Shown here: positions 14,825-26,380 of the stretch, piece by piece
Position numbering within the stretch: the stretch's first letter is position 1
How the letters are laid out: each line of letters opens with the position of its first letter
Source of the DNA: a virus
Taxonomy: Duplodnaviria > Caudoviricetes
Virus record (IMG/VR): IMGVR_UViG_3300032219_001311
Location: 1-27,331 of that record
Strand: one strand, 5' to 3'
Length of the DNA: 27,331 nucleotides
The notes under the pieces: model-generated
The model's input: only the letters and a program-made list of their open reading frames with translations
Databases searched by the model: none
What the model was told of the DNA's origin: nothing
Position numbers and translations under genes: made by a program

Positions 14825-15037
14825 ATGAGGTATACTGGTCGCGTTAACGCATCTTGCACGGTCGAAGACCTTGGACAGAGGCAATTTGAGGTAGAAGTGT
14901 GGGGCGAAGTACCATTTGACCACAAGCGGACCTATACATTGAACGCTAAAGATGATAATTCGGCAGCAGAAGAAGGCTTGCGTCTTTTTTGCGATGAGAT
15001 GGAATGCTTTAGAAGCGCAGAAGCAAAGGAAGATTGA
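14825..15037 (+). CDS. small acidic hypothetical protein
   Basis: GGAG RBS then ATG 14825 (MRYTGR). Confidence 0.6.
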   Translation: MRYTGRVNASCTVEDLGQRQFEVEVWGEVPFDHKRTYTLNAKDDNSAAEEGLRLFCDEMECFRSAEAKED

Positions 15038-17349
15038 TGGCAACGCAACCGGGCCTCGCTCCAATGAATATTCGTCAGCCTGCTCCAGAAGAGCCGGGTG
15101 CGATTGACACGTCACCAATTCAGATCGACTTTGCTGATGAGAGCGGAGACAATCCTGAGACAGATGCAAACGGGAATATTATTTCCATTGAGCATGATGA
15201 CGGTTCAATCACCGTTTCGCTTGACGGTAACCCGCTTGAGACTGTCGAGAATGGCGATGACGGCGAATGGTTTGGCAATTTGGTCGATAAGATCGATGAA
15301 GCCGAACTTAACGCTATCTCTGGGGATTTGTTCCGGGGCATTGATGACGATTTATTGTCGCGTAAGGACTGGATTGAGACACGGGCGCAGGGAATTAAGC
15401 TTCTTGGCCTGAAAATCGAGATACCGGGGCTTACAGGAGCCACTGACGGCGCACCTGTTGAAGGCATGTCGCGTGTACGCCACCCATTGCTGCTTGAGGC
15501 CGTGCTGCGCTTCCAAGCTAACTCCCGGTCGGAACTTTTGCCGACTGATGGACCCGTTAAGATCCGTAATGACGATAACAACGCGACATTGCAGGAAGAT
15601 CAGATTGCAAACGCACTTGAGCGTGACCTTAACCACTATCTGACATCGACGGCGACGGAATATTATCCCGACACCGACCGCATGCTGCTGATGCTGGGCT
15701 TTGGCGGTACGTCATTTAAGAAAGTTTATTATTGCCCGCTGCGCAACCGCCCAGTTTCGGAGACAGTTGACGCTGATGACCTAATCGTAAGCAATGATGC
15801 AACGGATTTGTCCAATGCGCGTCGCATTACGCACCGGATCATGATGCGCCCGTCGATTGTAAAACGCATGCAGATCCTTGGCGTCTATCGTGACGTTGAT
15901 TTGGGCACACCTAGCATGCGCCGCCTTGATCCATTGCAGCGCGAAGAGCGTGACCAACAGGGTATTTCGTCTGATTCCACCAATCCATTGGATCGTGATC
16001 GCGAGATATACGAATGCTATTGCGAACTGGACATCAAGGGCTTTGAGCATAAGCACAAAGGCAAGATCTCCGGGCTTGAGATCCCATACCGCGTGACCGT
16101 TGACGTTTCCTCAAAGGAAATCCTGTCGATTGTCCGCAACTTTGACGAAGAAACAGCAGACCTGCCAATCGCAAAGCCAAACTTTGTTAAGTTTACGTTC
16201 GTACCGGGCCTTGGGTTCTACGACATTGGCCTCCTGCACATTCTGGGCAACACCACCAACGCCATTACGGCTGCATGGCGCGAGTTGTTGGATGCAGGCA
16301 TGTATTCGAACTTCCCCGGCTTTCTCATGGCTGACACAGGCGCACGGCAGAACACAAACATCTTCCGCGTTCCTCCCGGTGGCGGCGCACTTATCAAGAC
16401 TGGTGGCATGCCAATATCACAAGCCGTTATGCCGCTGCCCTACCAGCCGCCATCACAGGCGCTGATGCAGCTTGTTGGGGATATGGCTAATACAGGCATG
16501 CGTATTGGTGGAACGTCTGAGCAACAGGTTGGTGAAGGCCGCGCTGACGCCCCTGTTGGCACGACCCTTGCTATGATCGAACAGGCTACCAAGGTCATGA
16601 ATGCCGTTCACAAGCGCCTTCATGCTGCTCAGGCTGAAGAGTTCCGATTGCTGTGCGAATGCTTCCGCCAAAACCCTGAAAGCTTCTGGCAGCGCAACGC
16701 TAAGCCAACCATGTCATGGGATCAGGCGACATTCATTCAGGCGCTTAATGACTTTGACCTAACGCCTCAGGCTGACCCCAACACATCGTCGCAGGGCCAG
16801 CGTATTATGAAGATCACTGCCCTGAAGCAACTTCAGCAGGCAAACCCATCGATGTACGATCCTATCGCCATCGACACGGCTGCATTGCAGGCTATCGGCT
16901 GGTCGAACCCATCGCAGTTTATGGCACCGGCAGGCGCACAAGCATCGCCACCACCAGAACTGTTGCAGGCTCAAGCCAAGATGAAGACAGACGAAATCAC
17001 CGCAAATGCGCGGATGATGGAAGCGCAGGCACGGTCGGCAGAAACGCAAGCCAAGATCCAGTCCGGTGCATTTGCGCCAAAGCAAGACGGGCCAGAAATG
17101 GGTCAAGCAGCAATGAATGCCGCGCAGGCAGACTTGATCAACGCCGAAACCAAGCGCAGCGAAATTGGCGTCCGTCATCAAGAGCGTATGGTTGAAGATC
17201 AGAACCGTGATCTAGATCGTCAAAGCCGTGAGCGCGTTGCCATGTTGCAGCTTGCCCGTGACCTTGTGATACATCCGGAGCAGGCTAAACTTATTGAGCC
17301 TTTGGCAAGCCCATCAGAGCGTAAATTTAATAAGGATGAGGGCGAATGA
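15037..17349 (+). CDS. portal protein
   Basis: About 770 aa after terL; HPLLLEAVLRFQA..ELLP..GPVK, G..FKKVYY, PGLGFY..GL.H, PVGTTLAM.E; helical C-terminal extension as in podovirus portals. Confidence 0.88.
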   Translation: MATQPGLAPMNIRQPAPEEPGAIDTSPIQIDFADESGDNPETDANGNIISIEHDDGSITVSLDGNPLETVENGDDGEWFGNLVDKIDEAELNAISGDLFRGIDDDLLSRKDWIETRAQGIKLLGLKIEIPGLTGATDGAPVEGMSRVRHPLLLEAVLRFQANSRSELLPTDGPVKIRNDDNNATLQEDQIANALERDLNHYLTSTATEYYPDTDRMLLMLGFGGTSFKKVYYCPLRNRPVSETVDADDLIVSNDATDLSNARRITHRIMMRPSIVKRMQILGVYRDVDLGTPSMRRLDPLQREERDQQGISSDSTNPLDRDREIYECYCELDIKGFEHKHKGKISGLEIPYRVTVDVSSKEILSIVRNFDEETADLPIAKPNFVKFTFVPGLGFYDIGLLHILGNTTNAITAAWRELLDAGMYSNFPGFLMADTGARQNTNIFRVPPGGGALIKTGGMPISQAVMPLPYQPPSQALMQLVGDMANTGMRIGGTSEQQVGEGRADAPVGTTLAMIEQATKVMNAVHKRLHAAQAEEFRLLCECFRQNPESFWQRNAKPTMSWDQATFIQALNDFDLTPQADPNTSSQGQRIMKITALKQLQQANPSMYDPIAIDTAALQAIGWSNPSQFMAPAGAQASPPPELLQAQAKMKTDEITANARMMEAQARSAETQAKIQSGAFAPKQDGPEMGQAAMNAAQADLINAETKRSEIGVRHQERMVEDQNRDLDRQSRERVAMLQLARDLVIHPEQAKLIEPLASPSERKFNKDEGE

Positions 17350-20300
17350 ACGACCCAAAGGTTATCCGCAAAGCAATCATGACCGCACGAAACATTGCGG
17401 CCATGGTTGATCCAAACTTTGCGCGTGTGCCTTTGCCCCAAATTGGTGAGCCTGATACGGAAGAGGCGCAGCCGCCCCTTGATTTCATGGGTGGTGGCTA
17501 TGCCGCTGGCGGTGAAGTTGAGCAGCCGACCGGATATGCCGCGCCAGATGATATGGGCCTGTACAGCCATGCAGCAGTAACGGCTGCTAATGCCCAACAG
17601 GCAAAAGCGTCACCTGACGAATTCCGCAACATGCTGACCAATCGCGGTGTCAAGCCAAGCGAATTCCAAGCATCTGGCTATGACGAAGCTTTTGCAGGCC
17701 AGCCGCAGGTTACCCGCGAACAGGTCGCAGAGCATTTCCATCAAAACCGTACACCTCTTGAGGAAAAGGGGTTTTATACTGACAACCCCAATATAGAAAC
17801 ACGGGCGGCTCTTCAAAAACAATATGATCAAAAGTACCGTGAATATGTGAATCGCAAGCAAGACGCCATAAGAGCAAACCTTCGTGAAGAATTTGATCCG
17901 GGTGGGGCTGAAGAGGCTGCATTACGCGATGAGCGCAGAAGCACTTTGGCGGCACTTAGAGAACAAGAGCTAAATGTTAATAGCGCCGGAACTCCGCACC
18001 ACGAAGAGTTTATGCTTCCGGGTGGTGAAAACTACCGTGAAATTGCGCTTAAACATGGCGGCGATGACGTTAGGTTTAAGGGTGTTGAAAACCACCTTGG
18101 CGGTGAGCAAAATGTCTTAACGCATCTTTTGATGAAAGATCGCACAGATAATGAGGGTAAGCGCCTTTTGCACCTTGATGAACTGCAAAGCGATTGGGCC
18201 CAAAAGGGACGGGAAAGTGGCTTTGACCAAAATTCTGAAGAAGGTCAAAAAGCTATTTCTGAATTTGAAGATTACAACAAGGATCTTAGGCAACGTGCTT
18301 TTGACGCCATTATGGAGCGGGCAAGGGAGCAGGGCAAAACTAAGGAAGATCTTGAAGTAATTAATGATTTATTCCAATCAGAGCAGTCCCCAGAAATGCT
18401 TGCTTATTATGCTGGTGGTCAAGATGAAGCTGACCGCTTTACAGAAATGCGTCGGCAAGCAGAAAAGGCTCAGAGCGGCATAACGCCAGCAGCTTACGTC
18501 ACAAAGACTGATGACTGGGTCGATTTGGGCCTGAAGCGCGCTATGATGGAAGCTGCCAAAGGTGGACATGATAAGCTTGCATGGTCGCCGGGTGACGTTG
18601 TCGCTGATCGCTATAACCTTAGCAAGCACATCAGGGACATCCATCACGAAAAGAATGATGACGGCACATATAACGTCATGGCGTATAATCATGATGGCGC
18701 AAAGGTTTACGACCAAGACAGCCTTGCCGAAAAGGATGTAGTGAACGCCTTGGGTAAGGATGTTGCTGGTAAAATCTTTTCCGGCGAAGGAACTGGGCGC
18801 GAAGAGGCGCAAGCCAGAGTTGACAGCGCACGAAAGGCTTATGAATCATTTAAAGATAAGCTGGTTGAAACCGATATACAAAGACGCCTTGAGGCTAAGC
18901 GTGAAGAAGACCCCAATTTCAATTGGGATGAGGGCCAAGAGGACCACCTTAGAGAAATTTTAAAAGATGATATAGCAGATAAAAATGCTTACTCTTACGC
19001 CCGCAACATGGGTTTTTCTGACGAACATAATACACTGGATAATGAGTTGCGAAGCGCATATTCCACCATAAGTAAAGCGCCTTATTCCGCATATCGCGAC
19101 TGGCGCACGTTAAGCGGCGTTGATCTTACGATTGGCGGCGAAGGTATGAAGAAGTTTTATAATGATATGGTGCCCAAGCGCTTAATAAAGCTTGCTAAGC
19201 AGCACGATCCTGAAGCCAAATTTTCCGTTTCAACCGTTAAGCACCCTAAGGAATATTATGAATCCGAAGAGGGTGAAAATAGCCACGACTATATTCCCGA
19301 CGTTGAAACCGATCTTCCAACGCTAGAAATTACGCCCAAGATGCGCGAAAGCATTCTGAAAAGGGGTTTTGCTGCCTATGCTGATGGCGGTGAGGTTGAA
19401 GGCTACGCTGAAGGTGGTGACGTTGACCCGGAGCGCGTTCGCGAATACCTGAAGCGCGTCCAAAGCCCGCTCAGCAGTAACCCTGCGTCTGTCCAAAGGG
19501 CATTGCAGATTGCGCAGTCGTATCGCGGCAAAACTGGTGCAGAAACTGGTACAGGCAGCTTTTACAATATCAAGCAATCCATGCCTGTCAGCGATGTCCG
19601 GGCAACGATTGGCGATATACCGGGGATTTCTTTGAAAAAAGAAAATCCGTTGTCATGGGATAAGTTCCACGACATTGCCAAGGGTGGCTCCCTCATTAAC
19701 ATGGGCGGCGATCTGTCAAACTTTGGGCGTTTGACCCACATTAACGACAAAGAACTTTCTTGGCCGGTAGATCTGCATGCTGGCGCTAAGTACATGCGTG
19801 AGCCTAATCCGGGTCAAGTGTGGCGAAATAACAAAAGCCATGCCACCGGATTTATGAACAAAATTAAGGCAGAAGAAGGCGCTGGACGTGATGTCTACGG
19901 CATTTTTTCGCCAATGGGCCCCACCGCTGTAAATTCATCACACAATATGTTTGACGCTTTGATGGCTCAAATCCCAACGGCAAGCATCAAAAAGGCAGAT
20001 CTTGAGGCGTTTGATGAAGCACTTTTAAACGGTGAGCATCTTCCTGCTGACGTGCGTAAAAATCCTGCTCAATTTGCAAGGGCTATGCAGGCGCTCGATC
20101 AGTGGCCGGGGATTGCAAATGCTAAGGCTTCCAGTGAGTATGCCAGACCAAAAGCGGGTAATCTAAGCGGCAGTCACCGTAGCTTAATTGTTGACTTTAT
20201 GGATAAATCCAGATGGCGGGACAAAGGGTTTCCTGAAGTTGGCGTCACCCGCGCTGCCATTACTGACCCAGCGCTAAAAGGCATTTCCGGGAACCTTTTG

Positions 20301-20684
20301 GGGCACCGGGTTGTAAAGCTGTCCTCTAAAGACAGTGAGCAGCCAGAGTTATTTGACCATTCCACTTACGAAAAGCCATCGTTTGGTGAGTATGTTGGCG
20401 ACGTTCCGCTTACACAGCGGCACTATGTGATGCCTGATGTGGTTGAGAGAATGATTGCTAATCCAACCCAGAAGGGTCAGGTTGTTCACCCATATTCAGA
20501 AGATGCCATGGGCCGCAGCACCGCAAGGAAGCTGTTTGAAGAGCAGAAGCAGGTGCAGCCAGTCAACCAGCGCATGCTGGACAGCGTCATGACAGGCATG
20601 GAAAACCAAGAGAAGTATGGCTTCAAAAAGGGCGGTAAAGTTCGTAGCGCCTTGATGATTGCAAAGGGTTTGAAAAAAAGGTAA
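17346..20684 (+). CDS. large multidomain virion-associated (internal/ejected, polyvalent-like) protein
   Basis: 1112 aa, coupled to the portal gene. Blocks LPGGENYRE, LDELQSDW.QKGR, W..LGLKR, GMKKFY..MVP recall large phage polyvalent proteins. Domains are bounded by YAAGGEV, YADGGEV, YAEGGDV and FKKGGKV. Confidence 0.7.
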   Translation: MNDPKVIRKAIMTARNIAAMVDPNFARVPLPQIGEPDTEEAQPPLDFMGGGYAAGGEVEQPTGYAAPDDMGLYSHAAVTAANAQQAKASPDEFRNMLTNRGVKPSEFQASGYDEAFAGQPQVTREQVAEHFHQNRTPLEEKGFYTDNPNIETRAALQKQYDQKYREYVNRKQDAIRANLREEFDPGGAEEAALRDERRSTLAALREQELNVNSAGTPHHEEFMLPGGENYREIALKHGGDDVRFKGVENHLGGEQNVLTHLLMKDRTDNEGKRLLHLDELQSDWAQKGRESGFDQNSEEGQKAISEFEDYNKDLRQRAFDAIMERAREQGKTKEDLEVINDLFQSEQSPEMLAYYAGGQDEADRFTEMRRQAEKAQSGITPAAYVTKTDDWVDLGLKRAMMEAAKGGHDKLAWSPGDVVADRYNLSKHIRDIHHEKNDDGTYNVMAYNHDGAKVYDQDSLAEKDVVNALGKDVAGKIFSGEGTGREEAQARVDSARKAYESFKDKLVETDIQRRLEAKREEDPNFNWDEGQEDHLREILKDDIADKNAYSYARNMGFSDEHNTLDNELRSAYSTISKAPYSAYRDWRTLSGVDLTIGGEGMKKFYNDMVPKRLIKLAKQHDPEAKFSVSTVKHPKEYYESEEGENSHDYIPDVETDLPTLEITPKMRESILKRGFAAYADGGEVEGYAEGGDVDPERVREYLKRVQSPLSSNPASVQRALQIAQSYRGKTGAETGTGSFYNIKQSMPVSDVRATIGDIPGISLKKENPLSWDKFHDIAKGGSLINMGGDLSNFGRLTHINDKELSWPVDLHAGAKYMREPNPGQVWRNNKSHATGFMNKIKAEEGAGRDVYGIFSPMGPTAVNSSHNMFDALMAQIPTASIKKADLEAFDEALLNGEHLPADVRKNPAQFARAMQALDQWPGIANAKASSEYARPKAGNLSGSHRSLIVDFMDKSRWRDKGFPEVGVTRAAITDPALKGISGNLLGHRVVKLSSKDSEQPELFDHSTYEKPSFGEYVGDVPLTQRHYVMPDVVERMIANPTQKGQVVHPYSEDAMGRSTARKLFEEQKQVQPVNQRMLDSVMTGMENQEKYGFKKGGKVRSALMIAKGLKKR

Positions 20685-20750
20685 TGATCTTGCGGCCACA
20701 ATTTTGTGGAAGCTTTTATTCGCCGGTAATTCGGTAAGACAGGAGACTGT

Positions 20751-22436
20751 ATGTCAGAGATGTCCCGCAACGCTCGCCGTGCAATGCGCGCTAAAATTCA
20801 TCGTATAATCGCAGCTAACAATGGCAAGGTTGACGCTTCTGACTACGGTCCTGAAGAAGTTTTGAATTCTGAAGTTAAGACGGGCATGCGCCCAATTTCA
20901 CGTCGCGCTTACAAGAAAGGCGGCAAGGTTGTTGCTGTTGAGGGCGCTGACGCCAAGAAGCATGCGGGCAAGAAGCCACGCGCAGGTAGCAAACATCTTA
21001 CCGTTGACGCACTGGTTAACCGCAATCTGAAAGATGCAAACGAAGCCCGTGAAGGCAAGAAGCACATTGGCGCTTTGAAAACAGGCGGTCGCGCTATGAA
21101 GCAAGACGGCGGTGGCGCATACAACGAGAGCGGTAAGCGCGCAACAATGGCTGAAATTGCTGCTGAAGATCGTCGTATGGGCGGCAAAGATGTTAACAGG
21201 CAAAAAAGGACAATGGCTAACAGCACAGGTCCTTCACCAGTGGCTGTGTCAAAGGTTCTTGATGCCATGCGCAACGGTCGCAAAGATGGCGGCGCTAACC
21301 GTGCTATGAAGAATTCAGAACGGGAAAATTACGGTGGCCAACAAGCAATGCCGCAGGCAATGCAGCGGGCAATGCAGCAGCAGCAAGCAATGCAGCAGCA
21401 ACCAGCAATGCAGCGAGCAATGCAGCAGCAGCAAGCAATGCAGCAGCAACCGGCAATGCAACGAGGCTATGATCAGCAGCAGCCAATGCCTTACAAGCGC
21501 GGTGGCAAATCTTGGGAGGGTTCCGCTAAGGACGAATCGCAGGACAAGAAGCTTGCTAAAAAGTACGGTATGTCGATGGCAGCGTGGGAAAAGTCCAAGA
21601 TGGACAAGAAGCACGACACCCAGCATTCGGCAAAGGGCCTGAATAAGGGCGGTCGCACCGGCAAGAGCCTTGGCGGCGTTCTAAAGGATGTCGGTAAATA
21701 TGCCGCACTTGGCGTTGCCGGTAATGCAATTGCGAAGAACCCATCTTTGCTTATGGGCGGTCTTGGCGCATTGGCATACAAAGCTTTTGGCAAGAAAAAG
21801 GATGGTCCGTCAACAGAGTCATCTCTTCCTGTCGCAGGCAAGAAGAATGGTGGCGGTTTGTACGCAAACATTCACGCCAAGCAAGAGCGCATTGCAAATG
21901 GATCAAAAGAGCGCATGCGCAAGGTTGGCAGCAAAGGCGCTCCAACGGCTGATGCGTTTAAGCAATCTGCGCGTACTGCTAAAGCCCATGGTGGCTACAC
22001 GTCGCTAGATGGCGAAATGCAGACGCAGGAAAAGGTTGGCGGTCGCATTGCTAAGCAATACGGCGGTAGCCTTGGTGCCCTTGAAATGAATAGCGGTGGT
22101 CGTACCAAGAAAAAGAACGGCAAGACCGACATCAATATCACCATTATGACTGGCAAGAGCCAGCCGCAAATGGATCCTAATATGCAGCAGCCACCAATGC
22201 CTCAGGGTATTCCAGTGCAGATGCCGCCTCCGCCACAGCCTCAGGCTGGTCCGCCTATGCAAATGCCTATGCCTCCAATGCCTGCGCCTCCTATGGGCGG
22301 TCCGGGCGCTGGTCCTGCACCAATGCCGCGCAAGGCTGGTGGCCGCACCTACCGTTCTTACAAGGATATGGATGCAGGCGCTGGTAGCGGTCCGGGTCGT
22401 TTGGAAAAGGCGGAGATCCAAAAACGTAAGAAGTAG
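20751..22436 (+). CDS. basic low-complexity protein with repeated xxGG motifs (putative internal head protein)
   Basis: 561 aa, AGGAG RBS; K/R/G/M-rich with about 14 xxGG motifs, Q- and P-rich tracts and one Gly/Ala hydrophobic segment. Confidence 0.75.
   Translation: MSEMSRNARRAMRAKIHRIIAANNGKVDASDYGPEEVLNSEVKTGMRPISRRAYKKGGKVVAVEGADAKKHAGKKPRAGSKHLTVDALVNRNLKDANEAREGKKHIGALKTGGRAMKQDGGGAYNESGKRATMAEIAAEDRRMGGKDVNRQKRTMANSTGPSPVAVSKVLDAMRNGRKDGGANRAMKNSERENYGGQQAMPQAMQRAMQQQQAMQQQPAMQRAMQQQQAMQQQPAMQRGYDQQQPMPYKRGGKSWEGSAKDESQDKKLAKKYGMSMAAWEKSKMDKKHDTQHSAKGLNKGGRTGKSLGGVLKDVGKYAALGVAGNAIAKNPSLLMGGLGALAYKAFGKKKDGPSTESSLPVAGKKNGGGLYANIHAKQERIANGSKERMRKVGSKGAPTADAFKQSARTAKAHGGYTSLDGEMQTQEKVGGRIAKQYGGSLGALEMNSGGRTKKKNGKTDINITIMTGKSQPQMDPNMQQPPMPQGIPVQMPPPPQPQAGPPMQMPMPPMPAPPMGGPGAGPAPMPRKAGGRTYRSYKDMDAGAGSGPGRLEKAEIQKRKK
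21357..21464 (+). repeat. 48-bp coding tandem repeat (2.25 copies)
   Basis: Units start at 21357, 21405 and 21453 and encode AMQRAMQQQQAMQQQP. Confidence 0.9.
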
Positions 22437-22499: not shown

Positions 22500-22697
22500 A
22501 TGAAATTTAACAATCTATTTGAATTTGAGTTGATGAAACTCATTGAGGCGCGCATCGCCTCCCTTTCAGAAAACATCACAAACGCACACGCAGTCGTTGA
22601 TTATTCCGACTATAAATACCAAGTTGGTAGGATTGCTGGCCTTCGCGAGTTTGAAGACCTGCGTGATGAGGTTAATAAAATTATTTCTGAACGATAA
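22500..22697 (+). CDS. small helical head-module protein
   Basis: ATG 22500; DYSDYKYQVGRIAGL motif, a type I recognise preceding phage GroES genes. Confidence 0.7.
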   Translation: MKFNNLFEFELMKLIEARIASLSENITNAHAVVDYSDYKYQVGRIAGLREFEDLRDEVNKIISER

Positions 22698-22713: not shown

Positions 22714-23106
22714 ATGCCACATATGATTATGAATCATGAAGAAGACCCAAAAGAAGCAATTATGCGGGAATTGGGTGATATTGAAAAGTTCAAAGTGTTC
22801 CACAATGAGGTGGTTGTCGCTGTGTATTTGCGTCCGGAAAAGACCAAAAGCGGTATATTCTTAACTGATCAGCACCGTGACGAAGACCGCCATCAAAGCA
22901 AGGTTGGCCTTGTCGTTAAGATGGGCTCTGAAGCTTTTGATGATCCCAATGGTAATTGGTTCCGGGGCATGGACGTAAAGCTGCATGATTGGGTTGTTTA
23001 TCGCCCTTCAGACGGCTGGACGATCACTGTCAACAACGTGCTTTGCCGTGCGCTGAAAGATACAAACATCCGGGGCAGTGTCCCACATCCTGATATGATC
23101 TGGTAA
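22714..23106 (+). CDS. groES: GroES/Cpn10-like co-chaperonin
   Basis: Mobile loop EKTKSGIFL, G.VVKMG, VK..DWVVY, final L.D..I.G. Confidence 0.85.
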   Translation: MPHMIMNHEEDPKEAIMRELGDIEKFKVFHNEVVVAVYLRPEKTKSGIFLTDQHRDEDRHQSKVGLVVKMGSEAFDDPNGNWFRGMDVKLHDWVVYRPSDGWTITVNNVLCRALKDTNIRGSVPHPDMIW

Positions 23107-24024: not shown

Positions 24025-24690
24025 ATGGAAACTATTGCACCAAAAAAGCGCGGACGCCCACCAAAGGTCAAAGAGGCCCTTGATCATGCAGCCCAAAGTG
24101 CCGCAGAAGCGGTAAACATAGATGCTTTGGAAGAGGCATATGAGCCCCTTGCTGTTGCTCCAGAGGCAACGCATGCGGATATTACGCCAACAATTCGCGA
24201 GGATATTAGAGCCCCTATGCGTGAAGAAGACCCCCGCACTCGCGCTGCGCGCCGTGCAGCAGAACTTCGTGATCACCTTGGCGATCTGGATGAAGGCACT
24301 GATGACTTTTTCATCAACAAGTCCGATATTCCACCGGGCTGGGAATATGAATGGAAGCGTAAGCTTTTGATGGGCGCTGAAGATCCTGCATATCAGGTGG
24401 CACTGGCCCGCGCTGGTTGGGAAGCGGTTCCGACATCGCGTCACCCATCCTACATGCCAAATAGCGGCAATCACCCAACGATTGAGCGCAAGGGTATGGT
24501 CCTTATGGAGCGTCCGTCAGAAATATCTGAAGAGTCCCGTGCAATTGAATTGCGCAAGGCGCGTAATCAGGTCCGGCAGAAGGAAGCCCAGCTAAATTCC
24601 GCAGAAGGCGGTCAGTTTGAGCGGGCAAATAAAGACCAGTCACTGGTTAATATCCGGAAAACTTACGATTCAATTCCGATTCCTTCGTAA
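24025..24690 (+). CDS. conserved head-module protein with N-terminal AT-hook-like KKRGRPPK
   Basis: AAGGAG RBS; IPPGWEYEWKR..GWEAV..IERKGMVLMERP. Confidence 0.7.
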   Translation: METIAPKKRGRPPKVKEALDHAAQSAAEAVNIDALEEAYEPLAVAPEATHADITPTIREDIRAPMREEDPRTRAARRAAELRDHLGDLDEGTDDFFINKSDIPPGWEYEWKRKLLMGAEDPAYQVALARAGWEAVPTSRHPSYMPNSGNHPTIERKGMVLMERPSEISEESRAIELRKARNQVRQKEAQLNSAEGGQFERANKDQSLVNIRKTYDSIPIPS

Positions 24691-25465: not shown

Positions 25466-26380
25466 ATGGCTGTTAATTTATCAGCAATTAAAGACCTTCT
25501 GCTCCCCGGCTTGCGGGGTGTAGAAGGCAAGTACGAGATGATCCCATCTCAGTACGACAAGATCTTCACAAAGCATGATTCGAAGCTGGCGTTGGAGCGT
25601 ACCGCTGAAATGCGTTACCTCGGCCTTGCTCAGTTGAAGACTGAAGGCGGTCAAACGTCTTTCGATAACGGCGCTGGTGAGCGTTATGTATACAACCAAG
25701 AGCATAACGAAATTGCTCTCGGCTATGCAATTACGCGCAAAGCCATCGACGATAACCTGTACAAGACACAGTTCCAACCTTCAAACCTCGGCCTGATTGA
25801 GTCATTCCAACAGACCAAGGAAATCTACGGTTCGAACATCTTGAACACGGCAACAACCTACAACGCCAATATTGGTGGTGATGGCGTAGCGCTTTGCTCG
25901 ACTTCTCACCCAATTGATGGTGGTACGGTTGCCAACACGCCGACCACTCAGGTCGATCTGAACGAGTCCACGTTGCTTAACGCAATGATTTCGATCCGGA
26001 CGAACTTCAAGGATCAAGCTGGTCTGAAGGTCTTTGCCCGTGGCCGTAAGCTTATCGTTCCGCCGCAGCTTGAGCCTGTCGCTATTCGCCTTACCAAGAC
26101 GGAACTCCGTCCGGGTACAGCAGATAATGATGTGAACGCTATAATCAGCACAAGTGGTGGCCTTCCAGAAGGCTACATGGTCAACGACTTCTTAACGTCG
26201 GCCTACGCTTGGTTCCTCCTGACCAACATCGACGGTTTGTCGTACATGGAGCGCGTCAAGTTCGAAACCGACATGCAAGTCGATTTCGTAACCGACAACC
26301 TTCTGGTCAAGGGCTATGAGCGTTATAGCTTTGGCTATTACAACTGGCGTTCGATCTTCGGTTCGTTCCCGACTTCGTAA
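25466..26380 (+). CDS. major capsid protein (HK97 fold, Mu gpT-like)
   Basis: 304 aa; LLPGL, K.EG, ALGYAITR.AI.DNLY, KLIVPPQL, AWFL, ERYSFG...WR..FG. Confidence 0.9.
   Translation: MAVNLSAIKDLLLPGLRGVEGKYEMIPSQYDKIFTKHDSKLALERTAEMRYLGLAQLKTEGGQTSFDNGAGERYVYNQEHNEIALGYAITRKAIDDNLYKTQFQPSNLGLIESFQQTKEIYGSNILNTATTYNANIGGDGVALCSTSHPIDGGTVANTPTTQVDLNESTLLNAMISIRTNFKDQAGLKVFARGRKLIVPPQLEPVAIRLTKTELRPGTADNDVNAIISTSGGLPEGYMVNDFLTSAYAWFLLTNIDGLSYMERVKFETDMQVDFVTDNLLVKGYERYSFGYYNWRSIFGSFPTS

What the first reader, a model, noticed from the sequence alone, without database searches (positions are those of the whole stretch)
17346..22436. Two adjacent head-module proteins punctuated by a shared xxGG motif: candidate polyprotein-processing or capsid-cargo tagging system
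Seen: the 1112-aa protein has YAAGGEV (17499), YADGGEV (19377), YAEGGDV (19404) and FKKGGKV (20622), at its ends and at the junction between its two halves. The next protein has about 14 related motifs (YKKGGKV, LKTGGRA, KQDGG, RKDGG, YKRGGKS, LNKGGRT, KSLGG, KKNGG, KAHGG, EKVGGRI, KQYGG, MNSGGRT, RKAGGRT). The two proteins otherwise look unrelated. Known: Gly-Gly is the cleavage determinant of adenovirus and ASFV maturation proteases and of C39 peptidases, and T4 internal proteins use a short capsid-targeting sequence. Inference: the motif is either a maturation cleavage site that frees modules inside the head, or a repeated handle that docks cargo on capsid, scaffold or portal. No protease gene is recognisable in this window.
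Basis: partly seen in the sequence, partly recalled or inferred. Interest (0 to 1): 0.85.

Follow-up and report, generated by a model that had tools for sequence, protein, structure and literature searches.

The report
Cut-site code in phage cargo polyproteins
Two proteins beside this phage's portal gene are strings of swappable modules joined by one short peptide that matches the mapped maturation cut of phage T5's tape measure, so they are likely polyproteins cut into pieces inside the particle by a protease not yet identified.

Summary
The motif is real and sits at the stated coordinates. The window is the head module of an HTVC023P-like podophage. In relatives, protein A is a leader, shuffled cassettes (ART-PolyVal, InPase, LPD23, PBECR5, wall hydrolase) and a tail helix. 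The motif fences the cassettes: 51 of 54 C-edges and 35 of 47 N-edges of A's first cassette, but 3 copies in 27,998 interior residues. It also marks ejection proteins. The one mapped cut at such a site is T5 pb2, R1127|AEGG, so Gly-Gly lies after the cut, unlike adenovirus, ASFV or C39. crAss001 cargo gp45 carries seven copies; its portal-bound density starts at a motif alanine, and my re-analysis of published MALDI lists finds no full-length gp45 (motif-free gp46 is unseen too). Best reading (0.65): a maturation cut, with a terminal helix as the likely loading tag. No cut is shown for this phage and no protease is identified; a conserved 191-aa GE-Y-V protein of relatives is a weak candidate. 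It predicts the unmapped lambda gpH cut at F733|A734. This scan noted the motif and the T5 match before, on other genomes.

The parts
17346..20684 (+). Protein A, 1112 aa: cargo polyprotein (leader | cassette M2 | 9-aa spacer | cassette M1 | tail helix)
17346..17501 (+). Leader, residues 1-52, kept in 6 other orthologs whose cassettes differ
   Evidence: cluster M3, 7 members; 56-84% identity in L005-L011
17364..17390 (+). N-terminal helix tag IRKAIMTAR, predicted loading signal
   Evidence: tag in 20 of 24 cargo ORFs, 1.6% of random internal windows; function inferred
17499..17519 (+). Motif 1 YAAGGEV, predicted cut Y52|A53
   Evidence: register by analogy to T5
17502..19379 (+). Cassette M2 (626 aa, acidic, no Pfam family), shuffled among relatives
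19377..19424 (+). Motifs 2 and 3 (YADGGEV, YAEGGDV), nine residues apart, at the M2/M1 joint
19407..20624 (+). Cassette M1 (406 aa, no Pfam family); begins its own ORF in L056
20622..20666 (+). Motif 4 FKKGGKV followed by the C-terminal helix tag VRSALMIAK
20751..22436 (+). Protein B, 561 aa: basic, low-complexity, 13-14 motif copies separating 8-81-aa pieces, mostly basic
   Evidence: 17 B proteins (window included) of 345-695 aa carry 6-11 strict motifs each
20910..20930 (+). B motif YKKGGKV; GG kept in 16 of 16 orthologs (so are the sites at 21075, 22086 and 22329)
21855..21986 (+). B module 369-412 between two GG sites; a small family of its own elsewhere (phrog_16028), also inserted between motifs in the GE-Y-V protein of G005
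15034..17349 (+). Portal (SU10-type), upstream context
22714..23106 (+). GroES-like co-chaperonin, conserved downstream context
25466..26380 (+). Major capsid protein (42% identical to HTVC023P capsid); no motif

Best explanation
Proteins A and B are strings of swappable modules joined by one conserved peptide, [Y/F/R/K/L/M]-[A/K]-x-G-G-x-[V/A/T/I], and that peptide is likely a maturation cleavage site cut after its first residue, as in T5 pb2 (R|AEGG). Shown: the motif is a protein-level signal, fences exchanged cassettes, is kept out of cassette interiors, and is concentrated in head-internal and ejection genes. Inferred: a terminal amphipathic helix loads the precursor into the prohead; cutting then frees the leader, the tail and each cassette, giving injectable anti-host enzymes from A and short basic peptides from B. 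A cuttable seam would explain why any cassette can be dropped in anywhere. The protease is unknown. The best candidate is a conserved 191-aa protein beside the ejection genes of relatives, whose GE-Y-V element resembles the one that follows the motif in tape measures; this last step is weak (about 0.3).
For: (1) Homology breaks among 24 non-redundant cargo ORFs fall within 15 aa of a motif in 210 of 513 cases (shifted-motif null mean 50, maximum 90 in 1000); 54 of 191 unique breakpoints against 18.6. (2) In 71 independent database homologs of cassette M2, a motif lies at 35 of 47 internal N-edges and 51 of 54 C-edges, chance about 0.17, with 3 motifs in 27,998 interior residues. (3) Cassette order varies, and cassettes that start an ORF lack the upstream motif; so does the B module in S-RIP2. 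(4) In 7 relative genomes: 126 motifs in 34,038 aa of 48 internal-class ORFs against 17 in 96,585 aa of 508 others (class chosen). (5) T5 pb2 is cut 'after R1127' by intact-mass MS (PMC10038345 passage); that site reads R|AEGGMM and leaves 92 residues, the fragment size given in PMC12617516. (6) crAss001 gp45 has seven motif-like sites. Both resolved segments, 214-245 and 425-552, lie between sites, 420 A apart, and the second starts at the Ala of N-A-F-G-G (PMC10172136 passages). (7) In published MALDI lists gp45 matches 0 of 15 Arg-ending peptides in bands 5-8, where portal gives 4 of 9, gp22 11 of 13, gp25 10 of 15 and gp26 10 of 13. (8) Lambda gpH, cut near its C-end at an unknown site, has FATGG at 733, giving 79.8 + 12.5 kDa. 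(9) RIO-1, where semi-tryptic MS found no clear processing, has only 3 loose matches in 6,296 aa.
Against: No cut has been measured in this phage family, and the window is a 27-kb fragment that lacks the tail and ejection genes. No prohead protease family was hit (only 23 of 72 G002 ORFs were scanned besides the window's). The first residue is very variable, and the second is mostly Lys in B (64%) but Ala in A-type cargo (63%) and in T5. T5 pb2 has a second loose match (RALGGTS, GG at 141) with no cut reported in the passages read. The predicted lambda fragment is 12.5 kDa against a reported ~14 kDa. Motif-free gp46 is also not identified in the MALDI lists, so the absence of gp45 may be technical. 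The crAss001 authors model gp45 as one intact chain threaded through the portal. 137 of 191 unique breakpoints are not at a motif, and 26 of 72 internal motifs have no break nearby. Relatives are not independent samples.
Confidence: 0.65

Rival explanations
1. The motif is an uncut, repeated docking handle that binds portal, scaffold, capsid or an adaptor; B is a multivalent hub and cargo is loaded by its motifs.
For: Both sides of GG are conserved, with a hydrophobic residue at +2. B has 13-14 copies in a disordered chain, some only 8 residues apart. In crAss001 the A-F-G-G-W stretch is ordered in the portal-bound domain. No protease was found.
Against: A handle need not sit exactly at cassette edges and be missing where a cassette starts an ORF. 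A separate terminal helix is shared by 20 of 24 cargo ORFs, including one with no motif. The same peptide is the mapped cut in T5.
Confidence: 0.2
2. The motif is a flexible linker or a short DNA homology at which modules recombine, with no reader at all.
For: It lies at recombination joints. Glycine pairs are common in linkers, and GGC/GGT codons dominate.
Against: Third codon positions vary much as in other glycines (12 and 10 different GG hexamers). Aromatic or basic, Ala/Lys and Val positions are conserved. Four B sites are kept in 16 of 16 orthologs with no module swap needed. The motif also sits near the ends of ejection proteins.
Confidence: 0.07
3. The motif is cut, but by a host protease or a phage zincin, possibly only after injection, not by a dedicated virion enzyme during assembly.
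For: The reference list of PMC12617516 cites selective host involvement in T5 tail-protein cleavage (title only). G002 codes an ArdC-MPTase zincin and MW202675 a SprT-like protein. Iyer 2017 proposes zincin processing of polyvalent proteins.
Against: T5 and lambda tape measures are cut during tail assembly. The motif occurs in phages of E. coli, Bacteroides, Pelagibacter and Mycobacterium. No MPTase was found in 28 cargo ORFs.
Confidence: 0.08

Closest known systems
Maturation cleavage of T5 tape measure pb2 (after R1127; Linares 2023, PMC10038345) and lambda gpH to gpH* + gpHC (site and catalyst unknown, PMC12617516)
   Same: Same peptide at the T5 cut (R|AEGG); DT57C keeps it; lambda has FATGG and YATGG in the cut region; all are proteins carried inside the virion and ejected.
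   Different: One cut near the end of a tail ruler, against 4-14 sites per chain in head cargo of a podophage; here the motif works as a cassette boundary.
Phage-type polyvalent proteins (Iyer et al. 2017, PMC5512222)
   Same: Orthologs of A carry ART-PolyVal, InPase, LPD23, PBECR5 and a SpoIID-like or Hydrolase_2 wall hydrolase, in mosaic order, beside head genes.
   Different: No MPTase in the 28 ORFs scanned; the passages read describe no junction motif; the window's own two cassettes match no Pfam family.
crAss001 cargo protein C1/gp45 (Bayfield 2023, PMC10172136; PF25725)
   Same: Internal cargo with seven motif-like sites and small basic modules between them; its portal-bound domain starts at a motif.
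   Different: Published as an uncut chain; homology of its domain to the 191-aa protein is only a lead (Atlas 0.84, hhalign probability 0.5%).
T4 capsid-targeting sequence with gp21, and phiKZ/SPN3US prohead protease processing (recalled; search listings only)
   Same: A short terminal targeting peptide is removed and internal proteins are processed during head maturation.
   Different: Different consensus, no such protease found, and a P22/SU10-like head whose capsid protein carries no motif.
Adenovirus adenain, ASFV pS273R and C39 double-glycine peptidases (recalled)
   Same: Gly-Gly signal; B resembles a precursor of short basic core peptides.
   Different: They cut after the glycines; the mapped phage site is cut two residues before them.

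Membership tests
T5/lambda tape-measure-type maturation site | Peptide X|A-x-G-G-x-hydrophobic at the cut | tested here: met
   T5 R|AEGGMM; window Y|AAGGEV, Y|ADGGEV, Y|AEGGDV; B and A's last site have Lys in place of Ala
T5/lambda tape-measure-type maturation site | Chain is actually cut during assembly | not testable with these tools
   No virion proteomics for this family; only indirect crAss001 data
T5/lambda tape-measure-type maturation site | GE-containing element just after the motif | tested here: inconclusive
   No significant match in A or B; present as a separate gene in 7 of 7 relatives. HTVC023P gp79 matches the Douge tape measure at E=2e-6, but the 191-aa protein matches gp79 and gpH only weakly
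Phage-type polyvalent proteins (Iyer 2017) | Several conflict domains in one mosaic polypeptide | tested here: met
   17 of 28 cargo ORFs of relatives have a Pfam hit at E<=0.01, among them ART-PolyVal, InPase, LPD23, PBECR5; window A itself has none
Phage-type polyvalent proteins (Iyer 2017) | Zincin MPTase in the polypeptide as the proposed processing enzyme | tested here: not met
   0 of 28 cargo ORFs and not in A
Phage-type polyvalent proteins (Iyer 2017) | Packaged and delivered with the DNA | not testable with these tools
   Inferred from the position between portal and capsid genes and from the motif shared with ejection genes
Adenain/ASFV/C39 double-glycine processing | Cut after Gly-Gly (feature recalled) | tested here: inconclusive
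   The only mapped site of this motif is cut before A-x-G-G; not measured for this phage
Adenain/ASFV/C39 double-glycine processing | Ulp1-like or C39 cysteine protease gene | tested here: inconclusive
   None among 17 window ORFs and 23 of 72 G002 ORFs; the rest were not scanned
T4 CTS/gp21-type head processing | Prohead protease of the HK97/T4 type in the head module | tested here: not met
   No Pfam or PHROG protease hit among the ORFs from terminase to the gene after the capsid gene
T4 CTS/gp21-type head processing | Short terminal targeting peptide split from cargo by a site | tested here: inconclusive
   The layout is present in 20 of 24 ORFs; targeting is untested
crAss cargo protein 1 domain (PF25725) | Sequence or fold match of the 191-aa protein | tested here: inconclusive
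   Atlas 0.84 with 110 of 256 features; no Pfam hit; hhalign E=0.13

The most novel reading that the evidence does not exclude
One undescribed processing system spans tailed phages: the small GE-containing domain is a new protease that cuts tape measures in cis at X|A-x-G-G and, as a free-standing tandem protein, cuts podophage and crAss cargo polyproteins in trans. That would settle the lambda gpH cut (F733|A734) and make crAss gp45 a set of separate pieces, not one chain threaded through the portal.
Probability: 0.25. Interest if true: 0.93.

Novelty: new variant of a known kind. Interest (0 to 1): 0.76.

Why it matters
The site and catalyst of lambda gpH cleavage, first reported in 1974, were still called unknown in 2025 (PMC12617516). 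This motif gives an exact prediction and a candidate enzyme. It offers another reading of the crAss001 ejection model, in which one protein spans 420 A. It would also explain how a very common freshwater podophage group (about 1,200 stored stretches with a portal match in IMG/VR) swaps anti-host enzymes as plug-in cassettes. A loading helix plus a cut site would be a compact tool for packing proteins into phage heads.

Tried and rejected
DNA-level repeat: codons at the motif vary much as background; the only tandem repeat in A or B is a Gln-rich stretch at 21342-21489. Family scans: no Pfam or PHROG match for A; only phrog_16028 for B; for cassette M2, no usable Atlas hit and a marginal PHROG hit (E=0.025). 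Structure of the 191-aa protein: two AlphaFold2 models (pLDDT 68 and 71) gave no Foldseek PDB match at E<=0.001 and no VIA match that stands out (best Z 5.5 on the leader helices, 3.2 on the domain). The BFVD hits were uncharacterised phage proteins. The model did not order the protein's own motifs. This neither shows nor excludes a protease. Co-folding that domain with A residues 660-700 gave no verdict (score 0.02) and is not used. Profile links to crAss C1, lambda gpH and HTVC023P gp79 were not significant. The PDB sequence search with alignment A1 found nothing useful. The phi24B, JBD30, Douge and DT57C papers gave no mapped cut at the motif in the passages read. only showed that gpH relatives are common. 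A motif-string paper search was swamped by unrelated words. Motif neo-N-terminal peptides of gp45 fall outside the MALDI mass range by my estimate, so they were not tested.
Full report
1. Setting. The window is a 27,331-base virus record and is its own whole assembly. It holds small and large terminase, an SU10-type portal (15034-17349), ORF A, ORF B, a 65-aa ORF, a GroES-like gene, an acidic probable scaffold, two unknown ORFs and the major capsid protein. The capsid protein is 91% identical to that of MW202675 and 42% to HTVC023P. Close relatives in IMG/VR are 53-61 kb. The window's own tail and ejection genes are not in the record, so statements about them rest on relatives.

2. Observation. 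All four A motifs and all 13 listed B motifs are present at the given places. They are enriched over shuffles (A 5 against 0.63, B 9 against 1.07). Fourteen of the 16 other ORFs tested have none, and two have one match each in glycine runs. The signal is at protein level: GG is coded by 12 different hexamers in A-type cargo and 10 in B, with glycine codon use near background.

3. The motif fences cassettes. The portal search matched 600 stretches, confirmed 599 and kept 80 loci. Twenty of the 80 passed my filter for portal plus a B ortholog; with the window's A they gave 26 cargo ORFs, 24 non-redundant, of 260-1984 aa with 88 motifs. Internal BLAST ends lie within 15 aa of a motif in 210 of 513 cases (null mean 50, maximum 90). 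For unique breakpoints the figure is 54 of 191 (null 18.6, maximum 33), so 137 lie elsewhere; 46 of 72 internal motifs have a break beside them. Cutting at motifs gave 77 pieces of 40 aa or more in 35 clusters, arranged in different orders. A is leader, M2, M1, tail. In a separate set of 71 database homologs of M2, a motif lies at 35 of 47 internal N-edges and 51 of 54 C-edges, and only 3 lie in 27,998 interior residues. Cassettes that begin an ORF have no upstream motif. The B module 369-412, a 50-position PHROG family with matches in many cyanophages and pelagiphages, starts its ORF without a motif in S-RIP2 and sits between two motifs in another protein of G005. Of 28 cargo ORFs scanned, 17 had Pfam hits, including ART-PolyVal, InPase, LPD23, PBECR5, Hydrolase_2, ParB_N and GP88. 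These are domains typical of polyvalent proteins (Iyer 2017, passages).

4. Where else it occurs. In six IMG/VR genomes (G008 lacks its last 223 bases) and MW202675, the motif marks A, B, the two large ejection-type ORFs and the ORF after them, a 191-aa-type ORF before the acetyltransferase gene and, in most, a small basic ORF after the capsid gene. Density is 3.7 per 1000 aa in 48 such ORFs (43 carry it) against 0.18 in 508 others (15 carry it). I chose the class, the third ORF of the ejection cluster has tail-fibre PHROG hits in G002, and 'others' include spurious ORFs, so the ratio is inflated. B is conserved in all 17 complete copies, with 6-11 strict motifs; four sites are kept in 16 of 16 orthologs and the weakest listed site in 6 of 16. 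A second signal emerged: a helix such as IRKAIMTAR or VRSALMIAK at one or both ends of 20 of 24 cargo ORFs, against 1.6% of random internal windows (pattern built from these data). It is usually parted from the cargo by a motif.

5. Evidence on cutting from cultured phages. T5 pb2 is cut 'after R1127', localised by proteomics and intact-mass MS (PMC10038345, passages; supplement not readable). The T5 record reads FVPR|AEGGMM there and leaves 92 residues, matching the 92-residue pb2C in PMC12617516 (passages). RAEGG and RADGG are common forms in this family. The glycines thus lie after the cut. pb2 has one other loose match with no cut reported in what I read. Lambda gpH is cut near its C-end; the 2025 paper says the site and the catalyst are unknown and gives ~14 kDa. 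FATGG at 733 would give 79.8 and 12.5 kDa. crAss001 gp45 has motif-like sites with predicted new starts at 207, 261, 330, 371, 425, 560 and 826; my pattern caught four and I read three by eye. Cryo-EM resolved 214-245 in the tail and 425-552 on the portal, 420 A apart, and the authors assume one chain (PMC10172136, passages; Extended Data Fig. 3 and Table 3 are images I could not see; the peer-review file has no mention of cleavage). Residue 425 is the motif alanine. I re-matched the 13 published MALDI peak lists of crAss001 gel bands (PMC6235969, section 7 and supplement file 8 parts 70-74 and 173) against 30 of its proteins. Portal, gp22, gp23, gp25, gp26, gp44, gp47, gp49, gp50, capsid and gp36 were found in order of size, and gp29 by two peaks; gp45 never exceeded chance. 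It matched 0 of 15 Arg-ending peptides in bands 5-8, which I infer to be 77-100 kDa. Motif-free gp46 was also not identified (band 10 has a poor spectrum), so this is suggestive only. As a negative control, RIO-1 showed no clear processing under a semi-tryptic search (PMC4819975, passages) and has 3 loose matches in 19 virion-region ORFs.

6. The protease. None was recognised in the window. Among 23 of 72 G002 ORFs, Pfam found two Peptidase_S74 domains in an ejection protein, an M15 endolysin and an ArdC-MPTase. The 191-aa ORF is present in 7 of 7 relatives, with 3,397 database homologs and 2,838 clusters at 50% identity. It has a leader, a motif, then two copies of a short beta-beta-alpha-alpha element with a further motif between them. 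It often carries cassettes, including M2, after its leader; 97 of 106 long forms have a motif just before the domain. Across 150 representatives it keeps R20, T21, D22, H23, D38, N47, E102, H122, D126 and R133 at 93-100%, a set that would suit a catalytic site. The gene at the same position in HTVC023P matches an element that follows Y-A-x-G-G twice in the Douge tape measure (E=2e-6). But the 191-aa protein links only weakly to gp79, gpH and crAss C1 (Atlas 0.84), and earlier notes of this scan judged it a carrier. I rate it 0.3 as the enzyme.

7. Mechanism. Shown: a conserved peptide at cassette joints of head-internal proteins, of the same form as a mapped virion maturation cut. Inferred: a terminal helix loads the precursor, and cutting before the Ala or Lys frees A's 71- and 45-kDa cassettes and B's mostly basic 1-8.5-kDa pieces, the first for injection and the second perhaps for DNA packing. 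I put this at 0.65, an uncut handle at 0.2, host or post-injection cutting at 0.08 and a bare linker at 0.07.

8. Novelty. Maturation cleavage of internal proteins and polyvalent proteins are known kinds. I found no paper describing this motif as a shared code (searches; one search was uninformative and the library lacks most subscription papers). The DT57C paper reports no conserved motif among tape-measure C-terminal fragments (passages). Earlier AI notes of this scan saw the motif on other genomes and one saw the T5 match (read after my); they are not independent support. The T4, phiKZ, adenovirus, ASFV and C39 features quoted are recalled or seen only in search listings. Verdict: real, a new variant of a known kind, interest 0.76.

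Noticed in passing
L089:3-4904 (G002), L084:9649-14103 (G001): The first ejection-type protein holds two internal Peptidase_S74 self-cleaving chaperone domains, each followed by GG motifs: a second possible cutting system in the same chain.
   Followed up: partly
window 22714-23106: A GroES-like gene lies just after B and a 65-aa ORF in the relatives shown and in HTVC023P; its role in head assembly or processing is untested.
   Followed up: no
window 21342-21489: A 48-bp tandem repeat (2.8 copies) codes a Gln/Met/Ala stretch in B that most orthologs lack.
   Followed up: partly
L091:3255-6902 (G004), L093:15853-18510 (G005): Large terminases of 1215 and 885 aa against 538 aa in the window, which suggests inteins (inferred from length only).
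   Followed up: no
L012:12310-12387 (G004): This complete relative has no A-type gene between portal and B, so A is dispensable while B is core.
   Followed up: partly
L103:30388-32916 (crAss001 gp45, residues 282-313): A stretch between two motifs matches a 69-position small-protein family (phrog_16160, E=7e-4), like B's inserted module.
   Followed up: partly
L087:3957-4814 (G002): An ArdC-N plus MPTase-PolyVal anti-restriction-type gene in the early region.
   Followed up: no
window 24025-24690 and 22500-22697: Two conserved head-module ORFs (221 and 65 aa) with no family; both have counterparts at the same place in HTVC023P.
   Followed up: no
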